Virus record (IMG/VR): IMGVR_UViG_3300025879_000014 | Length of the DNA: 64,000 nt | Source of the DNA: an uncultured virus (IMG/VR IMGVR_UViG_3300025879_000014) | Taxonomy: Duplodnaviria; Heunggongvirae; Uroviricota; Caudoviricetes | Direction: 5' to 3' (one strand) | Part shown: one piece after another, positions 10,584 to 48,537 of the stretch | How the letters are laid out: every line of letters starts with the position of its first letter | Position numbering within the stretch: position 1 is the stretch's first letter | The notes under the pieces: model-generated | The model's database searches: none | Seen by the model: only the letters and a program-made list of their open reading frames with translations | What the model was told of the DNA's origin: nothing | Translations under genes and position numbers: made by a program

Positions 10584-10591
10584 TATTTTCC

Positions 10592-12886
10592 CTAGATTTT
10601 ACAGCTTTCGCAATCTTCTTCATCCGCATCGACTTGATCTAATTCCGGCAAGTCGTCAGGGTCTTTGTATTCGCCCGCACCATCGAATGTGTTATTATAG
10701 TATAATTGTTTCCCACCGAACTTATAGAAAGTGATAATATCTTTAATTAACTGAGACATTGGCACCTTAGAGTCTTCAAAGTGTTCTGGGTTATAACTAG
10801 TGTTAACAGAGATGCCTTGGTCGATATACTTCTGTAATACCGCACAGACTTTCAAGTAACCTTCCGGCGACTCTTGATCCCATAGTAAATCGTACTTGTT
10901 CTTCAAGTGGTGAATACCTGGAACGACCTGAGCCATAACTCCGTCTTTAGACTGTTTATAACTAACCAAAGCTCGAGGTGGTTCAATACCGTTAGTCGAG
11001 TTAGATATCTGAGCCGAAGTCTCTGCAGGCATCAAAGCCATTAGAGTAGAGTTACGAATACCGCTTTGTATCAATTGATTACGTAGAGCCTTCCAATCCA
11101 TACGGTTTTGCGGTTTAACTAAGTCATCAACATCGCTCTTGTATGTCATATTCGGAGTTATACCGTAGCTGTATTTAGTCTGACTAGTTTTTAAGCAAGC
11201 ACCCTTTTCAATAGCAAGGTCGGCAGAAGTCTTAATTAAGTAATAACTCCAAGCTTCGGCAAACTCATCGATAGTTGCTAAGGCATCGTCGTTATACTTT
11301 AACCCACGCTTCGCTAGGAAATACGCAAAGTTGATAATACCAACGCCAAGAGGTCTACGATCCATAGTAGAACGGTATGCAGCTACAACTGGATAGTCTT
11401 GATAATCTAACAACTCATCCAAAGCACGTACAGCAAGGTCACAATACTTTTCAAAGTCAGAAGGATCCTCAACTAAACCCCAGTTAATTGCAGCTAGAGT
11501 ACATAGGCTGATTTCGCCTTCTTCATCGTCCGCAGAAGATAGAGGTTTGGTAGGTAGATCGATTTCAGCGCAAAGGTTTGACTGACGAATCGGCGCTTCT
11601 TCTGGTACGAAAGAACCGTGTTCGTTAGCGTGATCAACGTTCTGTAGGTAAATACGTCCTGTATCCTTACGTTCAGTAATAAACGCTGTAAACAGTTCCA
11701 TAGCTGGTATGACTTTCTTACGGATAGAAGTCTTACGCTCGTATTTCTCGTATAACTCTTTGAACTTAACTTGGTCTGAATAGAATGCTTCATATAAGTC
11801 AGGAACATCGTCAGGGCTGAATAGAGTAATGTTACCGCCTGTCAGTAGACGTTCGTACATAGTCTTATTAAACTGGAACGCATAATCCATATGACGCACA
11901 CGATTTTCTTCAGTACCTTTATTGTTCTTGAGTACGATTAAGTCTTCAAATTCTAAGTGCCATGCTGGTAAGTATACCGTAGCAGCACCGCCACGAACGC
12001 CACCTTGAGAACAAGACTTGACTGATGCTTGGAACAATTTAAGGAACGGAATCAATCCAGTATGTACTACAGAACCATCGCCGATACGAGAACCAACTGC
12101 ACGAATAGCACCAGCGCCAATACCAATACCTGCTTTCTTAGATATGTATCGAACTACTGAAGTTGATGTACTATTAATTGAGTCCAGAGAGTCGCCAGAT
12201 TCAATAAGGACGCATGAACTGAATTGTCGTGTGGAAGTCCGAACGCCTGCCATGATCGGGGTAGGTAACGAGATATAGAATAGCGATATTGCATCATAAA
12301 ATTCCTTAACATATTTGATTCTGGTTTCAGTTGGGTACTGCGAGAATAAAGTCGCCGCAACCATCATGTAAAGAACCTGCGGAGTTTCAAAGATTTTACC
12401 AGTACTTCTATCTTGTACCAAGTACTTACCACGGAACTGTTCCATAGCAACGAACGTAAACTTAGAGTCTCGTTCGTGTTTGATGTACGATCCCAGCTGC
12501 TGTAATTCTTCTTCAGTATAGTAGTCAAAGACCTTACCATCATACACGCCTTCTTCGACGTTATTCTTAACTATCTGTATAAATTCCGTAGGTTCATATT
12601 GACCATATACTTCTTTACGAAGTTTATAGTTAACAAGATTTGCGGCAACATACTGATAGTTCGGTGTATGTTCTGATATTAGTTCTGCGGCAGACTTGAT
12701 CAACAGGTCGTGGATGTCTGACGCTGGGATCTTATCGTATAGCTGGATGTTGGCTTTCAATTCAATTTCTGAAATAGATACGCCATTTATCTCTTCAGTA
12801 GCCCATTCTAGGACTCGGTGGATCTTGTCTAACTGAAAGAGCTCAGTCGATCCGTCACGCTTTATTACGTTAATTGGTTTATTCAT
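10592..12886 (-). CDS. nrdA: Class Ia ribonucleotide reductase alpha subunit with ATP cone
   Basis: VIKRDG ATP cone, QFSSC, SNLCAE, C-terminal CESC. Confidence 0.97.
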   Translation of the reverse strand: MNKPINVIKRDGSTELFQLDKIHRVLEWATEEINGVSISEIELKANIQLYDKIPASDIHDLLIKSAAELISEHTPNYQYVAANLVNYKLRKEVYGQYEPTEFIQIVKNNVEEGVYDGKVFDYYTEEELQQLGSYIKHERDSKFTFVAMEQFRGKYLVQDRSTGKIFETPQVLYMMVAATLFSQYPTETRIKYVKEFYDAISLFYISLPTPIMAGVRTSTRQFSSCVLIESGDSLDSINSTSTSVVRYISKKAGIGIGAGAIRAVGSRIGDGSVVHTGLIPFLKLFQASVKSCSQGGVRGGAATVYLPAWHLEFEDLIVLKNNKGTEENRVRHMDYAFQFNKTMYERLLTGGNITLFSPDDVPDLYEAFYSDQVKFKELYEKYERKTSIRKKVIPAMELFTAFITERKDTGRIYLQNVDHANEHGSFVPEEAPIRQSNLCAEIDLPTKPLSSADDEEGEISLCTLAAINWGLVEDPSDFEKYCDLAVRALDELLDYQDYPVVAAYRSTMDRRPLGVGIINFAYFLAKRGLKYNDDALATIDEFAEAWSYYLIKTSADLAIEKGACLKTSQTKYSYGITPNMTYKSDVDDLVKPQNRMDWKALRNQLIQSGIRNSTLMALMPAETSAQISNSTNGIEPPRALVSYKQSKDGVMAQVVPGIHHLKNKYDLLWDQESPEGYLKVCAVLQKYIDQGISVNTSYNPEHFEDSKVPMSQLIKDIITFYKFGGKQLYYNNTFDGAGEYKDPDDLPELDQVDADEEDCESCKI

Positions 12887-17843: not shown

Positions 17844-19139
17844 TTAGTTTCCTTTATGTTTTTTCCAGAGGTCGGCATCAGTAGTTTTCTGAGTCTTACC
17901 ACCTGTTACAAATGAGTTTACTCGAGCCAAACCCCATTGCTCAGGGGTAGTTCCTGGTCTATGACCTGTACGCCAAGCAGCTACGCCACGGTCGTATACT
18001 TTCTTAAGAATAGAATAAGCCACGCCAGTTTTCTCAGCTTTATTCTTTAGAGCCTTCTTAGTATCTTCAGTCAATACGCCTTCAAAAGACGAGTCATATT
18101 GTTCATAAGATAAGACTTTCTTTTCACCGAACATCTTCTTATACTTCTTAGTGTACTTCGAAGGTTTGGTCTCAGCAGTAGCATCGCCTGGAGCAGGTTT
18201 ATACGCATCCGGATCGTCATCGTCCATCTTAGCACCTTTTTCAAAGTGCGCATCACGAGCCTTCTTAGTAGATTTAGCCTTAATACCAGCCATATATTTC
18301 TTAGGCTGGTCAGTATCTTTGTCTTTTGCTTCTTCGATTACTTTAACGTCAGTAACCCATTTACGAGAACGGATGCCGTCGGCGGATTCAACAATAACAT
18401 AGTTAGCTCCAAGCATAATAACTTGACCAACCTTGTTATCGTATTCTACAACATCACCTTCTGATAGTAAGTCGCCAGCAACATATGCTTCACGTTCTTC
18501 AGATACGGTTTCGAGTTCAACGTGTTGACGGAACATATGAGATTCTTCAAGACCCATACCTTTACGGACGGCATTGAATAGTTCTTTTGCTTCTTTAAAT
18601 CCTGAAGGTAATCCACGTACGAAAGTGTCAAAGGAGTTTTCCGAAGCAGCAGCACGCATTTTAGACGCCGACATACCTGATACGCCTTCAGCGTCTGGAT
18701 CTCGATCGCCAGCAGATACTACAGAAATAGACTGGAAGTCGTACAATCCGTGACGACCTTGTACTCCGTTGTACTTATTAGTTAACGTCTCGAATTCTTT
18801 AACTCGATCAGAACCAACAACCATTGTTACCTTGCTAAACCCTTTATCATGAAGAGATACCATGATATCAAATACGCTCTTAACCTTTTTGTCAAGTATA
18901 ATATTTCGCGCAGCTTTAGGGAACATTTTGCGCATAAACTTAACTTTAGTTTCATAGTCTAGTGGGTTCTTCTTAGAGTCCTGAGACTGTGAAGCATATA
19001 CAAAGTATTTACTACGTCCGGCAACTTTCGCCACTGCGTCAATTAGCTTTTCGTGTCCGACCGTTGGTGGATTGAATCGACCAAACGTGAACACGGCTTC
19101 TTGAGGCGCTTCTGTTACAAATTGCTTAAAGGACTTCAT
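17844..19139 (-). CDS. Cytidylyltransferase-like (HxGH-class) nucleotidyltransferase with C-terminal accessory modules
   Basis: FGRFNPPTVGHEKL, VGSDR, SASKMR; N-terminus MKSFKQFVTEA. Confidence 0.85.
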   Translation of the reverse strand: MKSFKQFVTEAPQEAVFTFGRFNPPTVGHEKLIDAVAKVAGRSKYFVYASQSQDSKKNPLDYETKVKFMRKMFPKAARNIILDKKVKSVFDIMVSLHDKGFSKVTMVVGSDRVKEFETLTNKYNGVQGRHGLYDFQSISVVSAGDRDPDAEGVSGMSASKMRAAASENSFDTFVRGLPSGFKEAKELFNAVRKGMGLEESHMFRQHVELETVSEEREAYVAGDLLSEGDVVEYDNKVGQVIMLGANYVIVESADGIRSRKWVTDVKVIEEAKDKDTDQPKKYMAGIKAKSTKKARDAHFEKGAKMDDDDPDAYKPAPGDATAETKPSKYTKKYKKMFGEKKVLSYEQYDSSFEGVLTEDTKKALKNKAEKTGVAYSILKKVYDRGVAAWRTGHRPGTTPEQWGLARVNSFVTGGKTQKTTDADLWKKHKGN

Positions 19140-25109: not shown

Positions 25110-26157
25110 CAGCAACTGCCTCCATATCAATTAGTTCTTCAGCGTCAGAAGCAATACCAAACTGATACTGTTTCTTGATGAACTCTTTAAAGTCGGTTTT
25201 CTCAAAGACAGGATCCCAGAACTCTTTCTCTAGAGTTTCTTTCACCCTAACCTTGCCACCCATTTCTCCAGTTTCTTGGTCAACAACTGCATACCAACCG
25301 TTGGAAGGCTTAACAACGTAGCCACCAGCAATAGCAACGTCCAGCAAACCAGAGTAGTTACATACCCCACCATCAAAAAGAACTTTGATAGGAATAGCAG
25401 ACTTCTCGCGAACATATCGCGACTTCTCAATATTAATGACGAAATCATATCCAATAATACCTGTACTTTCTTTGTTCTGACGACGACCAATGATCCAGAT
25501 ATTATCCGCAGAGTAATAGATACCTGTACCGCCAGAAACAACGTCTTTAGGGAACAAGCCCATCTCTTTGTATGTATGGTTAATAGCTAACAAAGGGATA
25601 TTCTTCATTGTAAGGTATGGAGTCGTCATACGAAACAGACCTTTCAATGCTTTGGCTCGTGACATATCAGCCACCGACTTCTCATTGATAGCATCTTCTA
25701 ATTCTTTCTTAGAAGCCAAGTTACCAATAGAGTCAATTACGATTACGACTTTATCGTCGCGCTCTAGCTCGTTAAGCTGACCAATAAGGTCAAACTTTAA
25801 TTCTTCAACGTCCTTGATAGGTGTATGTAATACTCGAGAGGTGTCAATACCAAACTGCTCAAAGTATGATTGCGGAGAACCAAACTCAGAATCGTAGAAC
25901 AACATAATAGAATCGGGATACTTCTTAAGATAAGCAGCTGCCATCTTTAAAGCAAACGATGTTTTGAAGTGTTTAGACGGACCAGCTAGTACCGTTAGAC
26001 CAGACGTAACACCGCCATCAATATCGCCAGATAAGGCAACATTCATCATAGGAACGTCAGTAGGAATAACGTCCTTCTGATTAAAGAAGGCAGAATCAGC
26101 TAGGGTAGCTGACTCTTTAACCTTCGAGTTTTTCTTTAGTTTAGACATTAAACTCAT
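25096..26157 (-). CDS. uvsX: RecA-like recombinase
   Basis: AGPSKHFKT, YDSEFG, DSIGNLAS, SGGTG. Confidence 0.95.
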   Translation of the reverse strand: MSLMSKLKKNSKVKESATLADSAFFNQKDVIPTDVPMMNVALSGDIDGGVTSGLTVLAGPSKHFKTSFALKMAAAYLKKYPDSIMLFYDSEFGSPQSYFEQFGIDTSRVLHTPIKDVEELKFDLIGQLNELERDDKVVIVIDSIGNLASKKELEDAINEKSVADMSRAKALKGLFRMTTPYLTMKNIPLLAINHTYKEMGLFPKDVVSGGTGIYYSADNIWIIGRRQNKESTGIIGYDFVINIEKSRYVREKSAIPIKVLFDGGVCNYSGLLDVAIAGGYVVKPSNGWYAVVDQETGEMGGKVRVKETLEKEFWDPVFEKTDFKEFIKKQYQFGIASDAEELIDMEAVADGVA

Positions 26158-26186: not shown

Positions 26187-26215
26187 ATTATACCGCATAA
26201 CAAAGTAAAAGTAAA
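26187..26215 (-). promoter_or_regulatory. Sigma70-type phage promoter (uvsX)
   Basis: TTTACT-N17-TATAAT. Confidence 0.85.
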
Positions 26216-27594: not shown

Positions 27595-27623
27595 ATTATA
27601 CTATAGAATCGCTTCTAAGTAAA
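27595..27623 (-). promoter_or_regulatory. Sigma70-type phage promoter
   Basis: TTTACT-N17-TATAAT. Confidence 0.8.
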
Positions 27624-27968
27624 GTCTTTTCTTAGAAATTCTTCTAAGTTCATAGCCTTATCGTCAACGTAGTATGTCGAAGAATAAGGTTTACCGAAGA
27701 TAAGTTGGTCATATGGTACAGAGTGTTTATGTAACCAACGCTCTGTCAACTCACCAACATCATCAAGTATCATATCTATATCCCCCTTATGAGTGACCAT
27801 TCGACGAGCCGAGCTTATGATTATGTGATAACCATTTTCTTTCAATTCTCTCATCTTTCGAATGATACTAGAGTTGGGAGCAGCTTCGTAATACTTACTC
27901 ACCGAATCCTTACAATCATGATTAGGGAAACAGATTGTATCATCTAAATCAAATACTATACTTTTCAA
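27615..27968 (-). CDS. HAD phosphatase (EcbF/BcbF-like)
   Basis: VFDLDDTI, SSARRM, FGKPY, YVDDKA; TTG start at 27968 inferred. Confidence 0.8.
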   Translation of the reverse strand: MKSIVFDLDDTICFPNHDCKDSVSKYYEAAPNSSIIRKMRELKENGYHIIISSARRMVTHKGDIDMILDDVGELTERWLHKHSVPYDQLIFGKPYSSTYYVDDKAMNLEEFLRKDFT

Positions 27969-29454
27969 TGTTATCGCCCACGTAGTCAATAAAACGTTCT
28001 TGTCTTCCAGAATCGTCATAGTGTAAAGGAATACAAGTAGCGATCAATAATAAACCGCCACCCAAGATTAGGTCAACTGGCAAACCGTACTCACGGAGTT
28101 TACGAACAAAGATATCTTTAACGTCCTGATTATGAGGAACATTAGAAACCATTGCGTTGTAGCCATGATACAAGTCGTGCGCTAGTTTACACCAGTCATA
28201 TAGGTTGTCACCATATATACCTTCGTGTTCACCGTATCCACCTCGAGGGTCAATTAACCTAATCTGGTCAGTTTGCTGATTGTACAGAATATTGCCAAAA
28301 TGTAAATCGCCATGCATACCAGAAGTAGGACGGCTGTGACGATGACATTCGACAGCAATAGCTATTATACTATCTTTTGTAGAAGAAGTAAAGTAGTTTT
28401 TCTCATCAATTCTACTAACAGTTTTATCGAACCACATAGCTCTAGAAAGTTTAGAGAACTCCCCCAAGAACTCCCTATCTTCACATTTGTCATTAAAGAA
28501 CTTAGTCTTCAATCGGAATAACTTATCAATAATGTATTCCCAAGCTGAAGCAGATAGGTTCTCATATAACATAAGGTCGGATAGTAACGTACCAGACTCA
28601 TACGACATTACAATGTCACATTCAGTATCAAATACTCTAGGGACAAACATAGATTGGTTTTGGTTCAAACATTTATACCAACCTTTCTCTCGATTAATAG
28701 TTGTTACTGATTCTGCGTCATGATAGTCCGGAGACTTACGAACTGTACCAAGCTCAGGATCATATTCCATTGTATTAAACGCACGAGACTTTAGGTTTAA
28801 TAGAGCAGCACAAGTCTTGTAATACGAAGGGAGTTCACCAATATCGTACCACTTGTTAGTCATTACCTTGTTGTAATTCCCAGCATTATAGTTCTCGAGC
28901 GCTTCTGAGATTTCATAACCAGAAGCATAGTTGAATGCCTCTTTAGCTTCTAAACCGTCATTGAAGGAATACAGACCAACAAGAGCATCAGCATTAGCTA
29001 TAGAGTTATCGGGTTTATTGAAGAAGTTACTACCGTCCCACATACACCAGTTAGAATGATCGTCAGCAGACTTAGCCAACAAGAAGTCCGTACCAAAAGG
29101 CATATCTTCTTCAAGGATAATCGCATCACCTAACCAAACAACGAGTGGTAGATCGGGGCAAGATAGTTCGTTAACACCTTTCATAATAGCATGACGTGGA
29201 CCGAGTAGGTCGCCTTGCTTTACGAACTTAATATCCGGATGTTTAACAGAACAGTAATCGCGCACATCATCAAACTGCCCGTCAACGATAACGATCTCGT
29301 TGATGTTAGCAGTCTTACGTGCCTGTTCTACGATATAGTCTAAGCATGGTTTACCGTTTACACGAACCATAATCTTAGAAGTGTTGCTTGATAAAGGGCG
29401 GAGTCGAGTAGCCGACCCTGCCGCAGGAATAACGAGATTAACCAAAGAATTCAT
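27949..29454 (-). CDS. Sugar-phosphate nucleotidyltransferase fused to an APH/choline-kinase-like domain
   Basis: N-terminal VIPAAGSATRLRPLS...K and WYDIG; C-terminal HGDLHFGN, LIDPRG, YDWCKL. Confidence 0.85.
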   Translation of the reverse strand: MNSLVNLVIPAAGSATRLRPLSSNTSKIMVRVNGKPCLDYIVEQARKTANINEIVIVDGQFDDVRDYCSVKHPDIKFVKQGDLLGPRHAIMKGVNELSCPDLPLVVWLGDAIILEEDMPFGTDFLLAKSADDHSNWCMWDGSNFFNKPDNSIANADALVGLYSFNDGLEAKEAFNYASGYEISEALENYNAGNYNKVMTNKWYDIGELPSYYKTCAALLNLKSRAFNTMEYDPELGTVRKSPDYHDAESVTTINREKGWYKCLNQNQSMFVPRVFDTECDIVMSYESGTLLSDLMLYENLSASAWEYIIDKLFRLKTKFFNDKCEDREFLGEFSKLSRAMWFDKTVSRIDEKNYFTSSTKDSIIAIAVECHRHSRPTSGMHGDLHFGNILYNQQTDQIRLIDPRGGYGEHEGIYGDNLYDWCKLAHDLYHGYNAMVSNVPHNQDVKDIFVRKLREYGLPVDLILGGGLLLIATCIPLHYDDSGRQERFIDYVGDNIEKYSI

Positions 29455-30253
29455 CTAATGTAGCTCCAGATCTATCGATAAAAGCTTTCTTCCAACTGAT
29501 AATTGCTTCTACACGAGTAGTAGAACCTTCATCAGTAGTCCAAGAAGCATTTTCTTTCACAGTCAGTTTAACAACTCCAGGGAACTCACGCTGTAACGCT
29601 CGGTAACAAGATTCTTGTAGTTCTCCATTACGAAACGTAGAGTTGCCTCCAGGTTTGCCATGAGGGTGGTTGAACGCATACTTGTATATAACAGCATTCT
29701 TCATTCCAGCCTTCAATAGTGATAGTATAGCGTAAAAATCTTCAAAAAGCTTTATATTTTTATCTTTACTCCACATACCATCAAAGCTGATGTCATTGTC
29801 ATTAAACATCTGAGTGTTAATACCATAACAAGAATATGAACGAGTAATCTCAACTAGATCTTCCTCGATACGGTTGTTACCCGCACGGTCTGAGATACCA
29901 ACCCAAGCATAGTTATCGAGTTCTTCCTCAACCATAGAAAGCATCTCGAACCACTGCTCTTCAGTCTCCATCTTCTTGAGTTTCATTTCTTCGTCACGAT
30001 ACATAAACGTACAGTTGTCGTCAATGATCATAATCTTTTCGCCATTGCCCAGATTAACCAGACGCTGGCGAACATCAGCAATACCATCAGTCATACCGAT
30101 ATCTAGAACATCAGCATCGGGATAGTTTTCTTTCAAAACATCAACTCGGTCAGAACGAGTACACAGAGTGGTTCGCGAACGAACCGACTCCGGCATATTA
30201 TCCCAACAACGTTGATTATCTTCACGCATATATGTAGGAATTAAAATTCTCAT
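29438..30253 (-). CDS. GT-A fold glycosyltransferase (TET-associated type)
   Basis: ILIPTY.R, IMIIDDN, FEDF, KPGGNS; C-terminal TLDEFFG. Confidence 0.8.
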   Translation of the reverse strand: MRILIPTYMREDNQRCWDNMPESVRSRTTLCTRSDRVDVLKENYPDADVLDIGMTDGIADVRQRLVNLGNGEKIMIIDDNCTFMYRDEEMKLKKMETEEQWFEMLSMVEEELDNYAWVGISDRAGNNRIEEDLVEITRSYSCYGINTQMFNDNDISFDGMWSKDKNIKLFEDFYAILSLLKAGMKNAVIYKYAFNHPHGKPGGNSTFRNGELQESCYRALQREFPGVVKLTVKENASWTTDEGSTTRVEAIISWKKAFIDRSGATLDEFFG

Positions 30254-31683
30254 TAAAAGAAGTCCTCCAAACTTGCTTGTTCAACTAAGGCGTCTGGGTC
30301 ATTACGTTCAGCCATTTCCCTACCGCCATTCTCAATTAGGTAATCAAACCACTCTTGGCTATGCCACATTCCAGGAGATACCCCATTCCAACGCTCGCGC
30401 CAGTGAGGATGTTCCTTATTCAATCTACGGTCGTCAACGAACTTACGACGTAGTTGCTCATAATCCCAGTCGCCTAGATTTAACATATCTTCGCGGAAAT
30501 AGAATACAAGAGACATACGTAGTAAGTCATCTTCACCTGATTCGGGAGCATCGATAGGCGTGTTACCGTGGATAACTCTCATATTGTCGATCAGTAGCAA
30601 ATCGCCTGGACGAACATTAATCGCAGCACGAACTTCCGGAGCAACTAAGTAACCACCCTTCCAATCCTTACCTTCAGGAGAGATTACCGTCAAGTTAGAA
30701 AACCCTTCGTTCAAAGAACCAGCGTCGCGATGGCAAGCCATACGAGCATTACGGTCTTTCATAGTAGTGTTAACTGTTACGGTTGTAAAGGTAGTATCTT
30801 CACCAATTAAGAACTTCTTATCAACTTGGTCGGCACACTTCTTCTGAGCTTCATAACGAACTGGCATCAAGTCAGCCATAGTCTTATCTAACTTACGAGC
30901 AAACGGATAGCACTTCTCAAACTCAGTACGGTTATGCTCAACGTGGGAAGTTGCTCGACCATACGGAATACGAGGATAACGACCATAGAAACCAGTAATA
31001 CCAGACCACAACGGCGTAGCATAAGAAGTATCAGAGATCATTGTTTCGTGTAACTTCTTGGCATAGGAGCGAGCATCATTAACATCAAGCTCGGCAAGAC
31101 GTTTCTCGGCAACTGAGAAGAAGTTGTCATAGACCCCAAACTCTGATTCAATCTTAGAGCGAAGCCATACCTCACCACGTGTTTCGTACTGGGCGGTTTT
31201 ATGTTTCTCGATTATCTCTTCGATCGGATCGCCACCCATAACACTTTGAGGCGAACCGTCCATATAGTAATCAAGAAGGTCACGTTGGAAAGGAGTAACC
31301 CAATCACGACCACCAGACTTCTCGGCACGTGGACCCGCAGCCATACCACGGTTATTAGATTCAGCTGCTGCCGAGAATAACCCTTCGAACGCACCGTTCT
31401 GTTCGTCTTGAGTGAACACACCCTTTCTAAACTTGAAAGCAACACGATCTTCGCCGATACAACCAATACATTCATTATTACAATTGGTTGCTTCTGTCAT
31501 ATCACACTCAGGCGGTAAGTAGAAGTCCGCATCGCTATCGATTAAGATATCGTACGAGCCTTCATCGGCATACTTACCTAATAACTCATCTTGGTCGACT
31601 ACGAACATAGCAACGTAGACGTCTTGCCCTTCAGAGCCAACGTACTTTTGCCACTCGTATCCACCAAACTTAACTAATTCCAT
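30253..31683 (-). CDS. TET/JBP-family 2-oxoglutarate-Fe(II) dioxygenase
   Basis: FTTVTVN, ACHRDAG (HxD), GDLLL, IHGNTP (distal His), RMSLVFYFRE (2OG-binding Arg); C-terminal SLEDFF. Confidence 0.85.
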   Translation of the reverse strand: MELVKFGGYEWQKYVGSEGQDVYVAMFVVDQDELLGKYADEGSYDILIDSDADFYLPPECDMTEATNCNNECIGCIGEDRVAFKFRKGVFTQDEQNGAFEGLFSAAAESNNRGMAAGPRAEKSGGRDWVTPFQRDLLDYYMDGSPQSVMGGDPIEEIIEKHKTAQYETRGEVWLRSKIESEFGVYDNFFSVAEKRLAELDVNDARSYAKKLHETMISDTSYATPLWSGITGFYGRYPRIPYGRATSHVEHNRTEFEKCYPFARKLDKTMADLMPVRYEAQKKCADQVDKKFLIGEDTTFTTVTVNTTMKDRNARMACHRDAGSLNEGFSNLTVISPEGKDWKGGYLVAPEVRAAINVRPGDLLLIDNMRVIHGNTPIDAPESGEDDLLRMSLVFYFREDMLNLGDWDYEQLRRKFVDDRRLNKEHPHWRERWNGVSPGMWHSQEWFDYLIENGGREMAERNDPDALVEQASLEDFF

Positions 31684-31708
31684 AATGTTCTCCTGTTTAA
31701 CAGCGCCT

Positions 31709-31737
31709 ATTATACTATACCTATCTGAGAAAGTAAA
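31709..31737 (-). promoter_or_regulatory. Sigma70-type phage promoter heading the DNA-modification operon
   Basis: TTTACT-N17-TATAAT; RBS AGGAG before 31683. Confidence 0.85.
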
Positions 31738-32117
31738 GTCTTTTTTAAGTCCGGTTCTGAATAGTTCGGACCTTTTAATATCTTGCCGTCTTCGCGGTAG
31801 ATAGGTTTGCCGTCTTCACCCAGCTTTGACATATTAGAACGTTGTACTTCACGGAAGCAAGCATCGGCGTCGATACCAAAGGCAGCAGCTGCTCCATACG
31901 TGACATATAGAATATCAGTAATGGCATCGGCAACTTCAACAATATCTTTCTCAGCCATAGCTTCTATCAATTCATCAAGTTCTTCTTTGATAAGGTCAAT
32001 ACGAAGTGCTTGTACTTCAAGAGAAGGAAACTCGGGAGAAGTCTTAACCTCTTGTCCGAATGCGTTCATAAAATTCTTTACTTTCTGGTAGTTTGTTACG
32101 TGTAGGTCTACACTCAT
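31710..32117 (-). CDS. MazG-like all-alpha NTP pyrophosphohydrolase (possible dUTPase)
   Basis: FGQ, LIKEELDE, EVADAITDILYV, EVQRSNMSK, GKILKG. Confidence 0.85.
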   Translation of the reverse strand: MSVDLHVTNYQKVKNFMNAFGQEVKTSPEFPSLEVQALRIDLIKEELDELIEAMAEKDIVEVADAITDILYVTYGAAAAFGIDADACFREVQRSNMSKLGEDGKPIYREDGKILKGPNYSEPDLKKTLLSQIGIV

Positions 32118-34633
32118 GCGAAAAAATCCTCAAGGCTTACTGTTTCTTCTTCGTTCCAACCGATCGCAGCCAATATCGGACGAACAACGTCTAGGAATGC
32201 CTTCTCAAACTGAAGGTCATAGTTAATGTATTTATGGAGCTTCAACTCCTCCGGTAAGTACTCCGGAAACGCAATCACATTCTCCTTGATAGGATTTGGT
32301 GTTTTAAGATAGCAGAACTTAATCTTCTCGCCATCTTGTATCGTCTGATACCGTTTAAGGTTGTTATCAGATAATGCTTTGTTATATAGGATAGCACCAC
32401 GAACGTGAATAGGACACCCTTTCTTATACACGAGAGTCTTATCTTCCCAAGCAGTAACCTTAGAAACCCCACGAGGAAACGCAACCTTTTCGGGAGGAAG
32501 GTTGATAAAGTGTTCCTTGAATTGGGCGATAGCAGTTTGGGTATCTTTCTCAGTGCCAGATACGATTACTTTAAACAACGCCTTCAACGCATCACGGCAA
32601 GACATAGGAGTCGACGACTTAACAGCTTCGATACCCATTATCTTCAGTTTTGGTTTAGAATACTGAACACCTTCGTTGTTGTGTACGTTTAGTATGTATC
32701 GTTTCTTAGCAGTCCAGATACCAGCATCGGCAATAGCTTCACGAGCCATGGCCATCTTATTCTCATATGCGTCCATATACTCAGCAAGCTGTTCATAAGA
32801 ACGTTCTAGCATAGGTTCAAACTGGTCGGAACATACTTTGTCAATCAACTTAACGACATCTTCCTTTGGTTTCTTATCCCAGTTTAAGTGCTTAACCAAC
32901 GGCTCGAAGTCAATGTAGACCGAGTCAGTATCGATAGCGATAACGTGATCTTTACCAGTTACACCTAGTATCTTATTGATGAAATTGTTTACAGCTTTCT
33001 CTGCCCAACGAATAGATAACTGACCAGATAGAGTAATACCTTCAGCAATACGAAGGTCATAGTATCTGAACCAACGATTACCGATAGCACCATAAAGTGA
33101 GTTCATCATGATCTTAAGAGCCATCTGCTCGTTGTCAAGTGTAGTGATAGACTTTTCTAATCGGTAGATTTCTTTCTTATCGTTCTTATCGGCATGCTGT
33201 AGTTCTTGCTCGTATTTGAGCATTTCCTTCTTAACAACCTTACGACCAGCATACATATCTTCAACGAGTTTAGGTATAACTCCACGAACGTCTTTGCGGT
33301 AATGCGAACCGTTAGCAGCCATTGTACAATCAGGTCGAACTGAATCAGGCTTTTGTAGGTTAAGTACATTATCTACAGTAACGCCAGTGGTGGATTCTTG
33401 TACGATAGTCTCAGGACTCATATTATACTGCATAATCAAATGCGGATATAGTGAGTTTAAATCAAAAGAAACTACCCAAGAATGACGACCAACCCGAGGA
33501 GCTTTAACATAACCACCTGGGAAGTCTGCCTTGAAGTTATCTTGTTTAGGTGGCGGAGCTACCTTATCTTCATGTAATACACGATAGATGTAAGTATCCC
33601 AGATACCAGTTGTACCAAATGCTTCAGAATAGTTTACCCCAGCTTTATAAGCCAAAGTCATACAAAGGGTAATCAACCCCATCTTATCTTCCATACGGTC
33701 AACCAACTCAACGTCTTTGATGTTATAGTCGATAAACTTCTGGTGATCTTCTTTGTAAAGAGTATAAAGGTTGCCGTGTTCTTCGTACGATAACTTCTTC
33801 TCGCCGAGTACAACGTGAGCGATATGGTCTAGTTTATACGACTCTTCTGCAGAGTAAGTAAACTTCTTATACAGGTCAAGGTAATCTAGGAGTTCAATAC
33901 CAACCAACTCGAACTTCTGCTCAACTCGGTTCATCAACTTGACTTCTCGCTCGTTGATTTTACCCCAAGGAGATAGTTTCTTAACCATATCATTACCGAT
34001 AATACGAGACATACGGTTTACAAGGTAAGGAATATCAAATAGAGTAGAGTTCCAGCCAGTAACAACGTCGGGCATATTCTTAGGTAAAGACCAATGGTTT
34101 ACGAAGTTCATTAGGAGATGAGCTTCGGACTCGCACTTGTAATAGATTACTTCATAGTCTTTCATCAACGCTTTACTAACATCAAAGTCATCAAGACCCC
34201 AAACATAGTAAACGTTATCAATGTTATTCTTTAAAGCAATAGATATTACAGGATAGTTGGCTTCGCGTGGCTGAGGGAATCCCTCATCTGAAGCAACCTC
34301 GATATCGATAGTTGTTACGTTGATGTTATCTCGGTTAAACTCGATATTTCCTGGGTGTTGTTGCTGGACGTACTGGGCGATGTAGTTAGTATTGCCATAG
34401 ATTTTAAAGTTAGACGTATCGCCATACTGCGCCATGAAGTCTTTTGCTTCGCGCATAGAATCAAGTTCAACAGGAGCAAGCTTAGTACCGTCTAAGGATT
34501 TCCAATCGCCGTTCTCCGATGGGACGAATAGCGTTGGGGCGAAATTGACTCGGTCTTGGAACTTGTGTCCGTTTTTGTAGCCACGAACAAGTAAGCTATT
34601 ACCGAACCTAGACACATTAGTGTAGAATTTCAA
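32114..34633 (-). CDS. gp43: Family B DNA polymerase
   Basis: DIEV exonuclease motif, FDLNSLYP, KIMMNSLYG, IDTDS, KKRY; TTG start; C-terminal SLEDFFA. Confidence 0.97.
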   Translation of the reverse strand: MKFYTNVSRFGNSLLVRGYKNGHKFQDRVNFAPTLFVPSENGDWKSLDGTKLAPVELDSMREAKDFMAQYGDTSNFKIYGNTNYIAQYVQQQHPGNIEFNRDNINVTTIDIEVASDEGFPQPREANYPVISIALKNNIDNVYYVWGLDDFDVSKALMKDYEVIYYKCESEAHLLMNFVNHWSLPKNMPDVVTGWNSTLFDIPYLVNRMSRIIGNDMVKKLSPWGKINEREVKLMNRVEQKFELVGIELLDYLDLYKKFTYSAEESYKLDHIAHVVLGEKKLSYEEHGNLYTLYKEDHQKFIDYNIKDVELVDRMEDKMGLITLCMTLAYKAGVNYSEAFGTTGIWDTYIYRVLHEDKVAPPPKQDNFKADFPGGYVKAPRVGRHSWVVSFDLNSLYPHLIMQYNMSPETIVQESTTGVTVDNVLNLQKPDSVRPDCTMAANGSHYRKDVRGVIPKLVEDMYAGRKVVKKEMLKYEQELQHADKNDKKEIYRLEKSITTLDNEQMALKIMMNSLYGAIGNRWFRYYDLRIAEGITLSGQLSIRWAEKAVNNFINKILGVTGKDHVIAIDTDSVYIDFEPLVKHLNWDKKPKEDVVKLIDKVCSDQFEPMLERSYEQLAEYMDAYENKMAMAREAIADAGIWTAKKRYILNVHNNEGVQYSKPKLKIMGIEAVKSSTPMSCRDALKALFKVIVSGTEKDTQTAIAQFKEHFINLPPEKVAFPRGVSKVTAWEDKTLVYKKGCPIHVRGAILYNKALSDNNLKRYQTIQDGEKIKFCYLKTPNPIKENVIAFPEYLPEELKLHKYINYDLQFEKAFLDVVRPILAAIGWNEEETVSLEDFFA

Positions 34634-34666: not shown

Positions 34667-34695
34667 ATTATACTATATCTAGAGCAGAAAGTAAA
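34667..34695 (-). promoter_or_regulatory. Sigma70-type phage promoter (gp43)
   Basis: GTTTACT-N17-TATAAT. Confidence 0.85.
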
Positions 34696-40606: not shown

Positions 40607-41293
40607 TTACGCTCCGAAAGTTGATGTCTTTTCAAGGGCAACCCAATATGTCGCTTTCGCATCGTCGTTTTTGAACTCAGAGATGAGCTTAGACGATACG
40701 GAAATATCGAAGTTTCCTGGCAAGAACTTAAAGTTATTGATATTGAATACTAGTTTGAATGCTTCGTCAGGACGAGCAGCAATCGTACCAAGTTTCATTT
40801 TAAAGGTGTTGGCAGTAGATACTTTAACATCAGTTACTTCAACAGTTGCTTCAGTAGAACCTTCTTCACCAATAATCACCACATCCGTACAAGCAATAGC
40901 AGTAGCTGCTTTACGAATAGCTGCCATCTGAGAGTCGGTCAAAGTAAACTTCACTACACTAGGTGGCATAGTAATGTCTTTAGACGGACTGGTCAAGATA
41001 GAGGCATCCGAGAAGAAATACTCAAAAGACTGCGAACCGTCATCATTAGAAATGGTGACAGAGCTTTCGTTAAAAGTAAACTCCGGATCATCAATCATAC
41101 CTGCAACGGTTAAGAAAGAGTTTAAGTCATAGATACCAAATTCTTGAGGGAACACGTCCGGAACTTCAGCAGAAGAAAGGACTGTCTTACTCTCGGCAAT
41201 GGTTTTAATAGTAGAACCTTCACGGACTACTAAGTTTGGATTAATGCTTGCGAAGTTGCGAAGCACGTTAAAGGTTTCATTTGATAGTTTCAT
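40607..41293 (-). CDS. gp45: Sliding clamp
   Basis: MKLSNET...NFASIN, FGIYDLNSFL, YWVALE. Confidence 0.93.
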   Translation of the reverse strand: MKLSNETFNVLRNFASINPNLVVREGSTIKTIAESKTVLSSAEVPDVFPQEFGIYDLNSFLTVAGMIDDPEFTFNESSVTISNDDGSQSFEYFFSDASILTSPSKDITMPPSVVKFTLTDSQMAAIRKAATAIACTDVVIIGEEGSTEATVEVTDVKVSTANTFKMKLGTIAARPDEAFKLVFNINNFKFLPGNFDISVSSKLISEFKNDDAKATYWVALEKTSTFGA

Positions 41294-46910: not shown

Positions 46911-47971
46911 CAAACAATCTCATAATTTTGAGCTTCAACATATAGCTCTCGGATTACAGTCTTAATACGGTCTTTGTCAAGGTCAGTATCAACTGCTTCA
47001 ACATAAGTATCTAGCAACTCGGTAGTTTCTTCGAGCGATACTTTATCATCGTCAATACTTTCACCAGAGAACTCCTCAAACGTTTCGGCAATCTTCATCT
47101 CGTGAGTTTCGACGTCTTGTAACTTATCTATAAAGCGATCGAATGTAAACGGATCCTTCTTGTTAGTCACCAATACTTTTATAAACTTGTTAGAGTACTG
47201 GTCAACGTCGGGGTTAGTGTAGTCCGTTGTTTCGTCGTCGTAATAGATCTTCTCAAACATAGTTATAGGGTTTCTTACTGGGGTAATCTCGCGAGTATCA
47301 GTATCGATAACGTGGAAGAACTTATTGTCATCACAGTCAGCCCAAGTAAACTCCATTTGCGAACCAAGATACATAATGTTCCCTTGAGTCGATTTAGTAT
47401 GGAAGTGACCAGAGAATACAGTTTCAAAACGTTTAAAGGTAGAAGGTTGCATTCCGTGGGGGTTTGGGATACCCTTATGCATTTCAAAACCTTCTATCTC
47501 AAAGTGTCCACCAAGCATAGATGCGTCACAGGTATTGATAAAGTTAATCGACTCGGCATAGTTCTCAGAGTTAATCCAAGGTACAACACCAACCTTTAGC
47601 CCATCATAATCTAATACCTTCGGCTCCATTATGATGTTAACATTAGAGGTATAGTAACCCAACAACTCTTTCAATGAGCATAGCTCGTTTGTGTTCTTAA
47701 AGAATACGTCGTGGTTCCCAGGAATAATATCCATAACCATACCATTATCTTTAAGGTGCTGAAGGAAGTGTTTCCGGTTAGCGTTCAAAGCTTTGAAGTT
47801 TACGAACTTACGGTGCTCATAGTAATCACCTAGATGAAGTACAGTTTTGATACCGTTCTCAATACAATACGGGAAGAAAACTTCTTCGTAGAATTTACGT
47901 TGATATTCAATGAATACATCAGAGCTATTACGAGCGCCACAATGCGTGTCGTTTAAGATAGCAACTTTCAT
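46910..47971 (-). CDS. gp47: Mre11/SbcD-like recombination endonuclease subunit
   Basis: DTHCG, LGD, GNHD, SGHFH. Confidence 0.95.
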   Translation of the reverse strand: MKVAILNDTHCGARNSSDVFIEYQRKFYEEVFFPYCIENGIKTVLHLGDYYEHRKFVNFKALNANRKHFLQHLKDNGMVMDIIPGNHDVFFKNTNELCSLKELLGYYTSNVNIIMEPKVLDYDGLKVGVVPWINSENYAESINFINTCDASMLGGHFEIEGFEMHKGIPNPHGMQPSTFKRFETVFSGHFHTKSTQGNIMYLGSQMEFTWADCDDNKFFHVIDTDTREITPVRNPITMFEKIYYDDETTDYTNPDVDQYSNKFIKVLVTNKKDPFTFDRFIDKLQDVETHEMKIAETFEEFSGESIDDDKVSLEETTELLDTYVEAVDTDLDKDRIKTVIRELYVEAQNYEIV

Positions 47972-48537
47972 TATTCGTCATCTCCCATAAAGTTCTCTAG
48001 GGATTTCTTTTCCTTTTCCTTTTTCTCAAAGTCCTTTATGATCTTATCAGAATCCTTAACTCGAGTAATACGCTCGCGAAGTTCATCAACAAAGTTCTGT
48101 TCGATAAAACCTTCACCCACGCCATCAGAAGTCATGAACTCTTCGAATCCAGCTTCGTCAATATACTTCATCTTCACGTCAAACTGCTTCTTTTCTTTCT
48201 GTATACGACGAAGAAACGCATAGAAGCAAATCTGAGTAAAGTAAGAGAAAGCGTTAGGAGTACCTGTACGAGTCTTAGTAGTTATGTCATAGTTCTTAAC
48301 TGCCTTTAAGCAATTCTCAACTGCGTCCATTACCATTTCTTCTCGGTACGTGTATCTAATGAAGTTAGGTCGGTGGGATAGTCCTTCGGCAATACGTAGG
48401 AAGCACCGAGCAATATACTCTGGTACAATAGGAGTGTCTTTACCTTCTGCATGCGCAGAATTAACAGAGTTAACGTACTCTACAACAGACTGAGAGAACT
48501 TCTTGTTATCGACATAGTGGGGTTTATTTTGCGACAT
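47971..48537 (-). CDS. gp55: Late-transcription sigma factor
   Basis: HYVDNK, IAEGLSHRPNF..Y, NAFSYFTQI; C-terminal SLENFM. Confidence 0.93.
   Translation of the reverse strand: MSQNKPHYVDNKKFSQSVVEYVNSVNSAHAEGKDTPIVPEYIARCFLRIAEGLSHRPNFIRYTYREEMVMDAVENCLKAVKNYDITTKTRTGTPNAFSYFTQICFYAFLRRIQKEKKQFDVKMKYIDEAGFEEFMTSDGVGEGFIEQNFVDELRERITRVKDSDKIIKDFEKKEKEKKSLENFMGDDE

What the first reader, a model, noticed from the sequence alone, without database searches (positions are those of the whole stretch)
27615..32117. Self-contained DNA hypermodification operon: TET/JBP oxygenase + glycosyltransferase + its own NDP-sugar pathway, next to the DNA polymerase
Seen: one promoter (31709-31737) heads four overlapping genes. 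These are a 2OG-Fe(II) dioxygenase (HRD...H...RxS), a GT-A glycosyltransferase, a nucleotidyltransferase fused to an APH-like kinase, and an EcbF/BcbF-like HAD phosphatase. A MazG-like pyrophosphatase and gp43 lie just upstream. Established: phage TET/JBP enzymes oxidise the 5-methyl group of 5mC or T in DNA and associated glycosyltransferases add sugars, whereas classical T4 instead modifies dCMP before replication. Inference: this T4-like phage modifies DNA after replication and makes its own unusual activated sugar rather than using host UDP-glucose. No C5-methyltransferase or dCMP hydroxymethylase is visible in this window, so the target could be thymine (base-J-like) or 5mC made by a gene elsewhere.
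Basis: partly seen in the sequence, partly recalled or inferred. Interest (0 to 1): 0.88.

Follow-up and report, generated by a model that had tools for sequence, protein, structure and literature searches.

The report
Phage thymine-to-sugar DNA modification cassette
A T4-like phage carries four adjacent genes that most likely oxidise thymine in its own DNA, attach a sugar to it, and make the activated sugar themselves; each part is of a recently published kind, but this combination is not described in the papers I read.

Summary
Between the gp43 DNA polymerase and a primase-like gene lie four overlapping minus-strand genes. They are a TET/JBP (5mYOX) dioxygenase, a TET-associated glycosyltransferase (TAGT), a nucleotidyltransferase/APH-kinase fusion and a small HAD phosphatase.

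The target is most likely thymine:
- No C5-methyltransferase was found in the window or in three complete related phage genomes.
- In 78 related viral loci the same oxygenase mostly sits beside genes of the 5hmU pathway (ADDT in 44, P-loop kinase in 34).
- Phage thymine dioxygenases are now in print (O'Toole 2026).

The fusion and the HAD are distant homologues (about 25% identity, same architecture and gene order) of AfhE and AfhF. That published pair makes UDP-arabinose by way of a sugar 1,5-bisphosphate. The sugar here is unknown, and no arabinose-5-phosphate isomerase was found.

All four genes recur in the cultured Stenotrophomonas phage DLP6, whose DNA is reported to resist restriction enzymes.

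The oxygenase and TAGT end in the same SLEDFF-type tail as gp43, whereas the sugar-activating enzymes do not. This suggests that the two DNA-acting enzymes are held on the sliding clamp. Earlier runs of this scan noted such tails on other phage DNA.

Verdict: a new variant of a known kind, of moderate interest.

The parts
31709..31737 (-). Promoter-like site TTTACT-N17-TATAAT, ending 25 nt upstream of the oxygenase start codon
   Evidence: one of 19 window matches against 1.23 expected. The same motif lies before the orthologous gene in L004.
30253..31683 (-). Long-form TET/JBP (5mYOX) 2OG/Fe(II) dioxygenase, 476 aa; probable thymine dioxygenase (T to 5hmU in DNA)
   Evidence: PF12851, 59.1 bits; phrog_24024, E 1e-138. 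The HxD...H...RxS residues are invariant. The top structural matches are CMD1, TET2, NgTET1 and CcTet. Gene context in 78 loci supports the role.
30256..30273 (-). C-terminal tail SLEDFF of the oxygenase, the same motif as the gp43 C-terminus
   Evidence: 77 of 78 orthologues carry the tail.
29438..30253 (-). TET-associated glycosyltransferase (TAGT), 271 aa, with invariant D78-D79; its tail TLDEFFG is encoded at 29441-29461
   Evidence: PF20691, 32.8 bits against 27.5; phrog_842, E 4e-44. It is 49% identical to the DLP6 TAGT. Invariant columns are and the tail.
28810..29454 (-). N-terminal sugar-1-phosphate nucleotidyltransferase domain of the 501-aa fusion (AfhE-like NTD)
   Evidence: PF00483. 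The P-A-A-G-x-A-T-R...K signature is invariant. Structural matches: RmlA Z 23.7, MurU 20.9, LicC 20.5.
27952..28806 (-). C-terminal APH-fold small-molecule kinase domain of the fusion (AfhE-like CTD)
   Evidence: PF01636. H381-G-D383...N388 and D402 are invariant. Structural matches: APH(2'') Z 17.2, methylthioribose kinase 16.6, LicA 15.6. The protein is 25% identical to HY126 AfhE over 454 columns, E 8e-17.
28364..28392 (-). Second promoter-like motif, inside the fusion gene, about 345 nt upstream of the HAD start
   Evidence: It is conserved at the matching place in the 82% relative, L004 position 13271.
27615..28019 (-). HAD phosphatase, 134 aa, AfhF-like, with the DLDDT motif; the true start may be downstream of 28019
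   Evidence: TIGR01689, E 4.8e-24. PDB 1xpj, E 4e-17. It is 27% identical to HY126 AfhF, E 6e-7, and 51% identical to an unannotated DLP6 ORF.
32114..34633 (-). gp43 family-B DNA polymerase, ending in SLEDFFA (context; source of the tail comparison)
   Evidence: 18 of 18 gp43 orthologues carry the tail.
31710..32117 (-). MazG/PRA-PH-type NTP pyrophosphohydrolase; adjacent, but not shown to belong to the cassette
   Evidence: PF01503. It lies upstream of the oxygenase in 9 of 78 loci and has no tail (0 of 9).
40607..41293 (-). gp45 sliding clamp, the presumed docking partner of the tails
   Evidence: PF09116 gp45-slide_C.
47971..48537 (-). gp55 late sigma factor, ending in SLENFMGDDE; an internal positive control for the tail motif
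   Evidence: phrog_234, E 3e-55; found by the relaxed tail scan.

Best explanation
This is a promoter-headed cassette for hypermodifying thymine in DNA at the polymer level.

Step 1 (inferred): the 476-aa 5mYOX dioxygenase hydroxylates thymine in phage DNA to 5-hydroxymethyluracil.

Step 2 (inferred): TAGT transfers a sugar from an NDP-sugar onto the new hydroxyl. The product is a base-J-like 5-(glycosyloxymethyl)uracil.

Step 3 (inferred from the published AfhE/AfhF mechanism): the phage makes the donor itself.
- The kinase domain of the fusion phosphorylates C1 of a host sugar phosphate.
- The HAD removes the original phosphate.
- The nucleotidyltransferase domain converts the sugar-1-phosphate into the NDP-sugar.
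- Kinase plus phosphatase thus stand in for a phosphomutase.

Step 4 (inferred from sequence only): the oxygenase and TAGT carry the polymerase's C-terminal clamp-docking tail. They would therefore work on clamp-loaded, newly made DNA, while the two donor-making enzymes are soluble.

The likely purpose is protection of phage DNA from host nucleases.
For: **Family identity and catalytic residues.**

**Fold.**
- The best four of 48,161 PDB chains for the oxygenase are TET-type DNA dioxygenases.
- The fusion model is good (pLDDT 88.8). It splits into a nucleotidyltransferase domain and an APH-fold kinase domain.

**Thymine as the target.**
- PF00145 was found in 0 of 5 records, including the complete genomes of C48C1, DLP6 and Cr30. 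The control search hit 12 of 14 genomes.
- None was found in the window's 85 ORFs.
- In 78 viral loci with an orthologue (59-100% identity; 80 loci fetched), the neighbours are ADDT in 44, GATase in 36 and P-loop kinase 3 in 34. TAGT occurs in 14 and GT1 in 7.
- No C5-methyltransferase or ParBc family appeared among 52 cluster representatives.
- Phage 5mYOX enzymes with such neighbours were shown to be thymine dioxygenases (PMC13229309, sections 5, 6, 11-13 read).

**Donor synthesis.**
- AfhE (nucleotidyltransferase NTD plus kinase CTD) and AfhF (a 1xpj-like HAD) make UDP-arabinose by way of Ara-1,5-bisphosphate (PMC13326640, passages read).
- The window proteins align to HY126 AfhE (25%, E 8e-17) and AfhF (27%, E 6e-7).
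- They have the same gene order and the same position between gp43 and uvsX.

**Cassette conservation.**
- DLP6 has TAGT (49%), HAD (51%), the fusion (24%) and TET (50%) side by side.
- DLP6 DNA is listed as restriction-enzyme resistant (PMC8228603, table).
- The HAD and fusion also travel together in another T4-like contig, L096.

**Tails.**
- L[DE][DE]FF occurs 3 times in all six frames of the window. Each is at the C-terminus of gp43, TET or TAGT.
- Across loci the relaxed tail is present on TET 77/78, gp43 18/18, TAGT 14/14 and GT1 7/7.
- It is absent from the fusion (0/4), HAD (0/4), GLF (0/5), epimerase (0/6) and GATase (0/36).
- In the window the relaxed motif also picks out gp55.
- T4 alpha-glucosyltransferase binds gp45 (PMC13216743, passages read).
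Against: - No biochemistry exists for this long-form subfamily.
- O'Toole et al. state that some clade-C1 enzymes without ParB showed no activity on 5mC or T in an earlier screen. I could not place this protein in their clades.
- The window is 64 kb of a larger genome that is not held. A methyltransferase could lie elsewhere in it.
- The characterised phage enzymes also oxidise 5mC in vitro (abstract).
- The oxygenase model is poor (pLDDT 63.2), and Foldseek gave no match at E <= 0.001.
- The fusion is only 24-25% identical to AfhE and to the DLP6 fusion.
- No SIS-type arabinose-5-phosphate isomerase was found in the complete DLP6 genome, the nearest held fragment (G001), two fragments of the 82% relative, or the window's ORFs. 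HY126, the positive control, has one.
- The P-loop kinase must act on DNA yet mostly lacks the tail (4/34). Absence of a tail therefore does not prove action on metabolites.
- Clamp binding rests on motif likeness alone.
Confidence: 0.6

Rival explanations
1. The oxygenase acts on 5-methylcytosine. The 5mC would be made by a C5-methyltransferase elsewhere in the unseen part of the genome, or by a host enzyme. The product would then be a glycosylated 5hmC, as in the clade A/B phage TET systems.
For: Phage TETs of clades A and B oxidise 5mC next to a C5-methyltransferase (PMC8256090, passages read). The characterised thymine dioxygenases also oxidise 5mC in vitro. Only 64 kb of the genome is visible. 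A related HAD-plus-fusion pair lies beside a C5-methylase-like gene in L096.
Against: PF00145 was found in 0 of 5 related records, including 3 complete genomes with an orthologous oxygenase. None was found among the window's 85 ORFs or among 52 neighbour-cluster representatives. The commonest partners (ADDT, P-loop kinase 3) belong to the 5hmU pathway.
Confidence: 0.12
2. TAGT uses a host donor such as UDP-glucose. The fusion and HAD do something other than make the donor: they further decorate the DNA-bound sugar by phosphorylation or nucleotidylation, or they serve a target that is not DNA.
For: A preprint (10.1101/2023.12.21.572611, section 9 read) lists APH phosphotransferase among 'additional sugar modifying enzymes'. 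The HAD's best Pfam hit is the PNKP DNA 3'-phosphatase domain. The best sequence match of the nucleotidyltransferase domain in the PDB is LicC, which activates phosphocholine and not a sugar.
Against: The same architecture and gene order are shown biochemically to make UDP-arabinose in HY126. Neither protein carries the tail found on the DNA-acting enzymes (0/4 each). The pair co-occurs with DNA glycosyltransferases in three different contexts.
Confidence: 0.12
3. The oxygenase does not act on DNA bases at all. It acts on free nucleotides, RNA or a protein, and its place beside TAGT is incidental.
For: The NCBIfam hits are weak matches to amino-acid hydroxylases. phrog_6059 is annotated as a tRNA enzyme. 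The AF2 model is poor.
Against: The Pfam Tet_JBP score is above the cut-off. The top four structural matches are all DNA 5-methylpyrimidine dioxygenases. The partners are strictly DNA-modifying enzymes in 78 loci. The protein carries the polymerase-type tail.
Confidence: 0.04

Closest known systems
Phage thymine dioxygenases (5mYOX clades C1/C2; O'Toole et al., PNAS 2026, PMC13229309; TET89 in Burke et al. 2021, PMC8256090)
   Same: Both are TET/JBP-family enzymes with no adjacent C5-methyltransferase. Both neighbour glycosyltransferases (as in C2) or AADT, P-loop kinase and GATase (as in C1). The proposed reaction is oxidation of T to 5hmU on the DNA polymer.
   Different: - This enzyme is 476 aa, against about 290-300 aa for the tested ParB-independent enzymes.
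- Short forms align only to residues of about 205-425.
- No ParB was found nearby.
- It carries a gp43-like C-terminal tail that is not mentioned in that paper or its supplements.
- APH and HAD neighbours are tallied there in only 0.33% and 0.63% of contigs and are not discussed.
AfhE/AfhF UDP-arabinose pathway of phages HY126, RB69 (gp52:53 + gp51) and DLP3 (gp82 + gp81) (PMC13326640, passages read; primary work by He et al. not held)
   Same: Both have a fusion with an N-terminal nucleotidyltransferase and a C-terminal kinase, followed directly by a 1xpj-like HAD. Both lie between gp43 and uvsX of a T4-like genome. Pairwise homology is detectable.
   Different: - Identity is only about 25-27%.
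- No arabinose-5-phosphate isomerase was found.
- The acceptor there is 5-hydroxycytosine, made before replication by a ThyA homologue, and the transferases match glycosyltransferases such as sucrose-phosphate synthase and BshA.
- Here the base is made on the polymer by a 5mYOX enzyme and the transferase is a TAGT.
Base J synthesis in kinetoplastids (JBP1/2 plus a base-J glucosyltransferase related to TAGT; the relationship is recalled from Iyer et al. 2013, not read here)
   Same: The two-step logic is the same: a TET/JBP enzyme hydroxylates thymine, and a TAGT-family enzyme then glycosylates it.
   Different: - No J-binding or SNF2 domain was found; only Tet_JBP and TauD matched.
- The donor is probably made by the phage and may not be UDP-glucose.
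- The setting is a phage replication module.
T4 alpha-glucosyltransferase, which binds gp45 (Sommer 2004, as cited and confirmed in PMC13216743)
   Same: It is a DNA glycosyltransferase of a T4-type phage that associates with the sliding clamp.
   Different: - It belongs to a different fold and family (PF11440).
- Its acceptor is hmC incorporated during replication.
- No polymerase-like tail is reported in the passages I read.

Membership tests
TET/JBP 5-methylpyrimidine dioxygenases (PF12851) | Profile score above Pfam's gathering threshold | tested here: met
   59.1 bits against 34.9, residues 250-398.
TET/JBP 5-methylpyrimidine dioxygenases (PF12851) | HxD...H iron triad and a 2OG-binding arginine | tested here: met
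   H318, D320, H372, R389 and S391 are invariant in 24 sequences.
TET/JBP 5-methylpyrimidine dioxygenases (PF12851) | Fold closest to TET-type enzymes and not to other 2OG oxygenases | tested here: met
   VIA-wide ranks 1-4 are CMD1 (Z 10.2, 280 aligned, rmsd 4.7), TET2 (9.9), NgTET1 (9.2) and CcTet (9.0); the next is FTO at 7.2. The model is poor (pLDDT 63.2), and the best relevant Foldseek match was only E 0.13.
TET/JBP 5-methylpyrimidine dioxygenases (PF12851) | Oxidises T or 5mC in DNA | not testable with these tools
   This needs expression and nucleoside LC-MS.
ParB-dependent phage T-dioxygenases (clade C1) | A co-located ParB-like activator gene | tested here: not met
   No ParBc hit was found in the window's 85 ORFs or in 52 neighbour-cluster representatives. 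A very divergent ParB cannot be excluded.
ParB-independent phage T-dioxygenases (clade C2) | Length of about 290-300 aa and placement in clade C2 | tested here: inconclusive
   The length is 476 aa. The association with a glycosyltransferase fits. The paper's sequences were not found as text in its supplements, so no tree could be made.
TET-associated glycosyltransferase (PF20691) | Profile score above threshold and a conserved acidic (DxD-type) motif | tested here: met
   32.8 bits against 27.5. D78-D79 are invariant in 9 sequences down to 17% identity.
TET-associated glycosyltransferase (PF20691) | GT-A fold | tested here: inconclusive
A PDB profile search gave nothing below E 0.3. The GT-A assignment is recalled from the literature.
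AfhE (bifunctional sugar-phosphate 1-kinase / NDP-sugar pyrophosphorylase) | Nucleotidyltransferase NTD plus APH-fold kinase CTD, with intact catalytic motifs | tested here: met
AfhE (bifunctional sugar-phosphate 1-kinase / NDP-sugar pyrophosphorylase) | Sequence homology to HY126 AfhE across both domains | tested here: met
   25% identity over 454 columns, E 8e-17. The tblastn search found 185 phage records, and 172 of them cover at least 80% of the query.
AfhE (bifunctional sugar-phosphate 1-kinase / NDP-sugar pyrophosphorylase) | A companion arabinose-5-phosphate isomerase, and arabinose as the sugar | tested here: not met
   PF01380 was found in HY126 only. It was absent from the complete DLP6 genome, G001 and two fragments of the 82% relative, and from the window's ORFs. 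A host isomerase could still supply Ara5P.
AfhF (HAD phosphatase of the pair) | HAD DxDxT motif, likeness to 1xpj, adjacency to the fusion | tested here: met
   The DLDDT motif is present. PDB 1xpj matches at E 4e-17. Identity to HY126 AfhF is 27%, E 6e-7. The gene lies directly downstream of the fusion.
EcbF/BcbF capsule phosphatase (TIGR01689) | Score above NCBIfam's curated cut-off | tested here: not met
   84.7 bits against 162. The protein is related to this family but not a member by that rule.
T4-type pre-replicative hmC pathway | A dCMP hydroxymethylase (thymidylate synthase family) | tested here: not met
   No PF00303 hit among the window's ORFs. Among 5 related records only Cr30 has one, at 373 bits. 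The rest of this genome is unseen.

The most novel reading that the evidence does not exclude
In T4-like phages the gp45 sliding clamp is the loading factor for thymine dioxygenases and their DNA transferases, docked through the polymerase's own C-terminal tail. It would play the role that the clamp-forming ParB plays for the ParB-dependent subclass. Hypermodification would then be coupled to the replication fork and not be merely post-replicative. The product here would be a base not yet described: a phage-made pentosyl (for example arabinosyl) or other non-glucose glycosyl-oxymethyl-uracil.
Probability: 0.3. Interest if true: 0.7.

Novelty: new variant of a known kind. Interest (0 to 1): 0.5.

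Why it matters
This cassette joins two pathways published in 2026: phage thymine dioxygenases and AfhE/AfhF sugar activation. The join predicts a new sugar-bearing thymine derivative.

Because the same four genes occur in the cultured phage DLP6, whose DNA is reported to resist restriction enzymes, the prediction can be tested directly.

Across the related loci examined, the split between tailed and untailed enzymes largely followed DNA-acting versus metabolite-acting roles. The P-loop kinase is the main exception. If clamp binding is confirmed, the tail could serve as a sequence cue for telling the two groups apart in hypermodification clusters.

The clamp idea also offers a reason why some ParB-less enzymes were inactive when expressed alone in E. 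coli. Modified phage DNA bears on restriction and CRISPR evasion and on enzymes used for DNA labelling.

Tried and rejected
- **Megablast of the locus against phage records:** no match.
- **Own genome:** not held.
- **AF2 model of the oxygenase:** built from 24 sequences and poor (pLDDT 63.2). Foldseek gave no match at E <= 0.001. Only the VIA-wide search gave a usable ranking.
- **Sugar specificity from structure:** not resolved. The nucleotidyltransferase domain matches RmlA, GalU, GlmU, MurU, LicC and IPCT about equally. The kinase domain matches APH, methylthioribose kinase, PsiK and LicA about equally.
- **PDB profile searches:** the fusion profile hit only the nucleotidyltransferase domain. 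The TAGT profile gave nothing below E 0.3.
- **Scan of 185,579 species genomes with the fusion profile:** one hit, a phage contig binned in a MAG. No cellular counterpart was found that could name the sugar.
- **Complex prediction of gp45 with the oxygenase tail:** Clamp binding is untested.
- **Atlas search with residues 1-205 of the oxygenase:** only other Tet_JBP clusters, all scoring below 0.8. No separate N-terminal domain could be named.
- **Supplements of PMC13229309:** searched for the family's motifs, the tail and the contig numbers; nothing found.
- **MazG as part of the pathway:** considered and set aside. It is present in 9 of 78 loci and has no tail.
- **LicCA-like CDP-choline reading of the fusion:** considered and ranked low after the AfhE/AfhF match.

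Full report
**Observation**

The window is a T4-like phage. It encodes gp23, gp20, gp18, the terminase, gp43, gp45, gp44/62, UvsX/W/Y, RegA and ribonucleotide reductase, almost all on the minus strand.

- PRA-PH/MazG, 31710-32117.
- Tet_JBP oxygenase, 30253-31683: 59.1 bits against a cut-off of 34.9.
- TAGT, 29438-30253: 32.8 bits against 27.5; phrog_842, E 4e-44.
- NTP_transferase + APH fusion, 27949-29454.
- HAD, 27615-28019: TIGR01689, E 4.8e-24, but below the curated score.

The oxygenase's HRD, H and RxS residues are invariant in 24 homologues. The fusion keeps the nucleotidyltransferase glycine-rich signature, the kinase HxDxxxxN motif and the Mg-binding aspartate. The HAD has a DLDDT motif.

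The site at 31709-31737 is one of 19 copies of TTTACT-N17-TATAAT, against 1.23 expected, and 18 of them are on the coding strand. A further copy lies inside the fusion gene at 28364-28392. It is conserved in an 82%-identical relative. The HAD may therefore have its own promoter.

**Which base is the target?**

The window's own genome is not held, so I used relatives.

The oxygenase has full-length orthologues in three sequenced phages: C48C1 (63% identity), Stenotrophomonas phage DLP6 (50%) and Caulobacter phage Cr30 (39%). None of these three complete genomes, nor two related fragments, has a PF00145 C5-methyltransferase. The control search found the family in 12 of 14 genomes. A thymidylate-synthase-family gene occurs only in Cr30.

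The family is large:
- 2,509 proteins at E <= 1e-5, with nearly all of the best 120 between 463 and 497 aa (three shorter, 444-450).
- 1,003 clusters at 50% identity with E <= 0.001.

I fetched 80 viral loci (445 candidate stretches had been confirmed as relatives). In 78 of them I could call the oxygenase ORF, and I clustered 829 neighbouring ORFs within 5 kb.

The oxygenase is the constant element, and the cassette beside it varies:

| Neighbour | Loci (of 78) |
|---|---|
| ADDT (amino acid:DNA transferase) | 44 |
| GATase | 36 |
| P-loop kinase 3 | 34 |
| GNAT (two clusters) | 21 and 17 |
| TAGT | 14 |
| GT1 with a GmrSD_N protein | 7-8 |
| Epimerase with UDP-galactopyranose mutase | 5-6 |
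| NT/APH fusion with HAD | 4 |

The four loci with the fusion and HAD represent two phages: the window's own and an 82% relative. Some of the 80 loci are duplicates of one phage.

No C5-methyltransferase and no ParBc family appeared among the 52 cluster representatives scanned. ADDT and the P-loop kinase act on 5hmU in DNA, as cited in PMC8256090 and PMC13229309.

O'Toole et al. (PNAS 2026, PMC13229309; abstract and sections 5, 6, 11, 12 and 13 read) showed in vivo and in vitro that phage 5mYOX enzymes lacking a neighbouring methyltransferase are thymine dioxygenases. Thymine is therefore the best-supported target. 5mC remains possible, because only 64 kb of this genome is visible and the characterised enzymes also oxidise 5mC in vitro.

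**Is it a DNA oxygenase?**

The AF2 model is poor (pLDDT 63.2), and Foldseek found nothing at E <= 0.001. An all-against-all structural search of 48,161 chains nevertheless ranked four TET-type DNA dioxygenases first: CMD1 (Z 10.2), TET2 (9.9), NgTET1 (9.2) and CcTet (9.0). FTO followed at 7.2.

Proteins of about 300 aa align only to residues of about 205-425. This is a long form with extra N-terminal sequence and a C-terminal extension. The tested ParB-independent enzymes are about 290-300 aa. I could not place the protein in the paper's clades.

**The donor module**

The fusion model is good (pLDDT 88.8).
- Residues 1 to about 220 match sugar-1-phosphate nucleotidyltransferases: RmlA Z 23.7, MurU 20.9, LicC 20.5.
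- Residues 217-501 match APH-fold small-molecule kinases: APH(2'') 17.2, methylthioribose kinase 16.6, LicA 15.6.
- The HAD matches the PDB entry 1xpj, E 4e-17.

Passages of PMC13326640 (NAR 2026) describe this architecture:
- The AfhE kinase domain converts Ara5P to Ara-1,5-bisphosphate.
- The 1xpj-like HAD AfhF removes the 5-phosphate.
- The AfhE nucleotidyltransferase domain makes UDP-arabinose.

The window proteins align to HY126 AfhE (25% over 454 columns, E 8e-17) and AfhF (27%, E 6e-7). In HY126 the pair has the same order and lies between gp43 and uvsX. By tblastn, 185 phage records hold a relative of the fusion.

The sugar is not settled. HY126 encodes an arabinose-5-phosphate isomerase. 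The complete DLP6 genome, the nearest held fragment (G001), two fragments of the 82% relative and the window's ORFs do not. The window's fusion is only 24% identical to the DLP6 fusion.

A scan of 185,579 species genomes found one relative of the fusion. It is a T4-like phage contig binned in a MAG. There the HAD and fusion sit with a ThyA-like gene, a dCMP deaminase and a C5-methylase-like gene. The pair is therefore a portable, phage-borne donor module.

**A cultured counterpart**

DLP6 carries, side by side:
- TAGT (49% identity).
- An unannotated HAD ORF (51%).
- The fusion (24%).
- The oxygenase (50%).

A review table lists DLP6 DNA as restriction-enzyme resistant (PMC8228603). The primary paper used 18 enzymes, though the passage I saw is garbled (PMC5349666).

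**Clamp tails**

Earlier notes of this scan, made on other genomes, reported polymerase-like tails on TET and glycosyltransferase proteins. I tested the idea here.

*In the window*
- L[DE][DE]FF occurs three times in all six reading frames. Each time it is at the very end of gp43 (SLEDFFA), the oxygenase (SLEDFF) or TAGT (TLDEFFG).
- A relaxed motif picks 5 of 89 ORFs: those three, the gp55 late sigma factor (phrog_234, E 3e-55) and one plus-strand ORF that is probably not a gene.
- That gp43 and gp55 bind gp45 by their C-termini is recalled knowledge.
- The RB69-type polymerase of HY126 ends in KKASLFDMFDF. I recall this as the peptide crystallised with the clamp; an entry with such a title appeared.

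*Across the related loci*

| Protein | Tail present |
|---|---|
| Oxygenase | 77/78 |
| gp43 | 18/18 |
| TAGT | 14/14 |
| GT1 | 7/7 |
| ADDT | 30/44 |
| GNAT (two clusters) | 13/21 and 13/17 |
| P-loop kinase | 4/34 |
| Fusion | 0/4 |
| HAD | 0/4 |
| GLF | 0/5 |
| Epimerase | 0/6 |
| CTP-transferase | 0/4 |
| GATase | 0/36 |
| gp46 | 0/33 |
| gp47 | 0/28 |

DLP6 and C48C1 show the tail too.

T4 alpha-glucosyltransferase binds gp45 (PMC13216743). Two literature searches and one search of supplements found no paper that links 5mYOX enzymes to the gp45 clamp.

**Verdict**

Each part belongs to a published kind. The combination of a thymine-type 5mYOX, TAGT and an AfhE/AfhF-like donor module is not described in the papers I read. 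The same holds for the long, tailed form of the oxygenase.

In O'Toole's mining table, APH neighbours appear in 75 of 23,070 contigs and HAD neighbours in 145, without comment.

This scan has already reported related clamp-tailed TET-plus-glycosyltransferase modules, and a self-made-sugar hmC cluster, on other DNA. That does not change the evidence, but it shows the module is common in T4-like phages.

Supplements of bioRxiv preprints were not available. The primary HY126 paper is not in the library.

Noticed in passing
window 3954-51588 (19 sites; e.g. 34667-34695, 27595-27623, 26187-26215): TTTACT-N17-TATAAT occurs 19 times against 1.23 expected. Eighteen copies are on the coding strand, mostly just upstream of genes, so this is probably the phage's early promoter consensus. 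One copy lies inside the fusion gene and is conserved in an 82% relative.
   Followed up: partly
L013 (DLP6, KU682439.2), record 25136-25468 and AAY80_029/030: The DLP6 record leaves a HAD ORF unannotated between AAY80_028 and AAY80_029. AAY80_029, called ModA ADP-ribosyltransferase in the paper, scans as NTP_transferase + APH. AAY80_030, annotated 'SNF2 DNA repair protein', is the TET/JBP oxygenase.
   Followed up: partly
L014 (Caulobacter phage Cr30) 10021-13468: About 1.7 kb downstream of its oxygenase gene, Cr30 has ADDT (E 1e-52), a weak TAGT-like gene and a myo-inositol-1-phosphate synthase. This hints at a different, possibly inositol-linked, thymine modification.
   Followed up: no
L096 (contig binned in a Flavobacteriaceae MAG) 4232-10678: This is a T4-like phage contig placed inside a bacterial MAG. 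It carries a ThyA-like gene, a dCMP deaminase, DUF1599, a 415-aa unknown, the HAD, the fusion and a C5-methylase-like gene ending in LQLDEFMV. There is no oxygenase in the stretch seen.
   Followed up: partly
L026-L028, L032, L036, L067, L072 (downstream of the oxygenase): In 6 of these 7 loci a GT1-type glycosyltransferase with a clamp-type tail is followed by a protein with a GmrSD_N domain (the N-terminal domain of a type IV restriction enzyme); L072 has the transferase but not that protein. This may be a nuclease that spares the phage's own modified DNA.
   Followed up: no
window 31459-31506 (oxygenase residues 60-75): Four cysteines (C60, C68, C72, C75) are present in the majority consensus of the family, but not in 90% of sequences. 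They may form a metal site in the N-terminal extension.
   Followed up: no
window 17844-19139 and 2981-3559: A 431-aa protein combines a cytidylyltransferase-like domain with DUF5824, and there is an NT5C-type deoxyribonucleotidase. These are further nucleotide-metabolism genes with no shown link to the cassette.
   Followed up: no
L001 (phage C48C1), L023/L024, L091/L093/L095: Another cassette beside the same oxygenase holds an epimerase, a ~349-aa protein of no known family (344 aa in C48C1) and a UDP-galactopyranose mutase, with a small cytidylyltransferase in three of the five IMG/VR loci (L091, L093, L095). The C48C1 locus shows only the unknown protein and the mutase. This suggests a galactofuranose-type decoration.
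   Followed up: no
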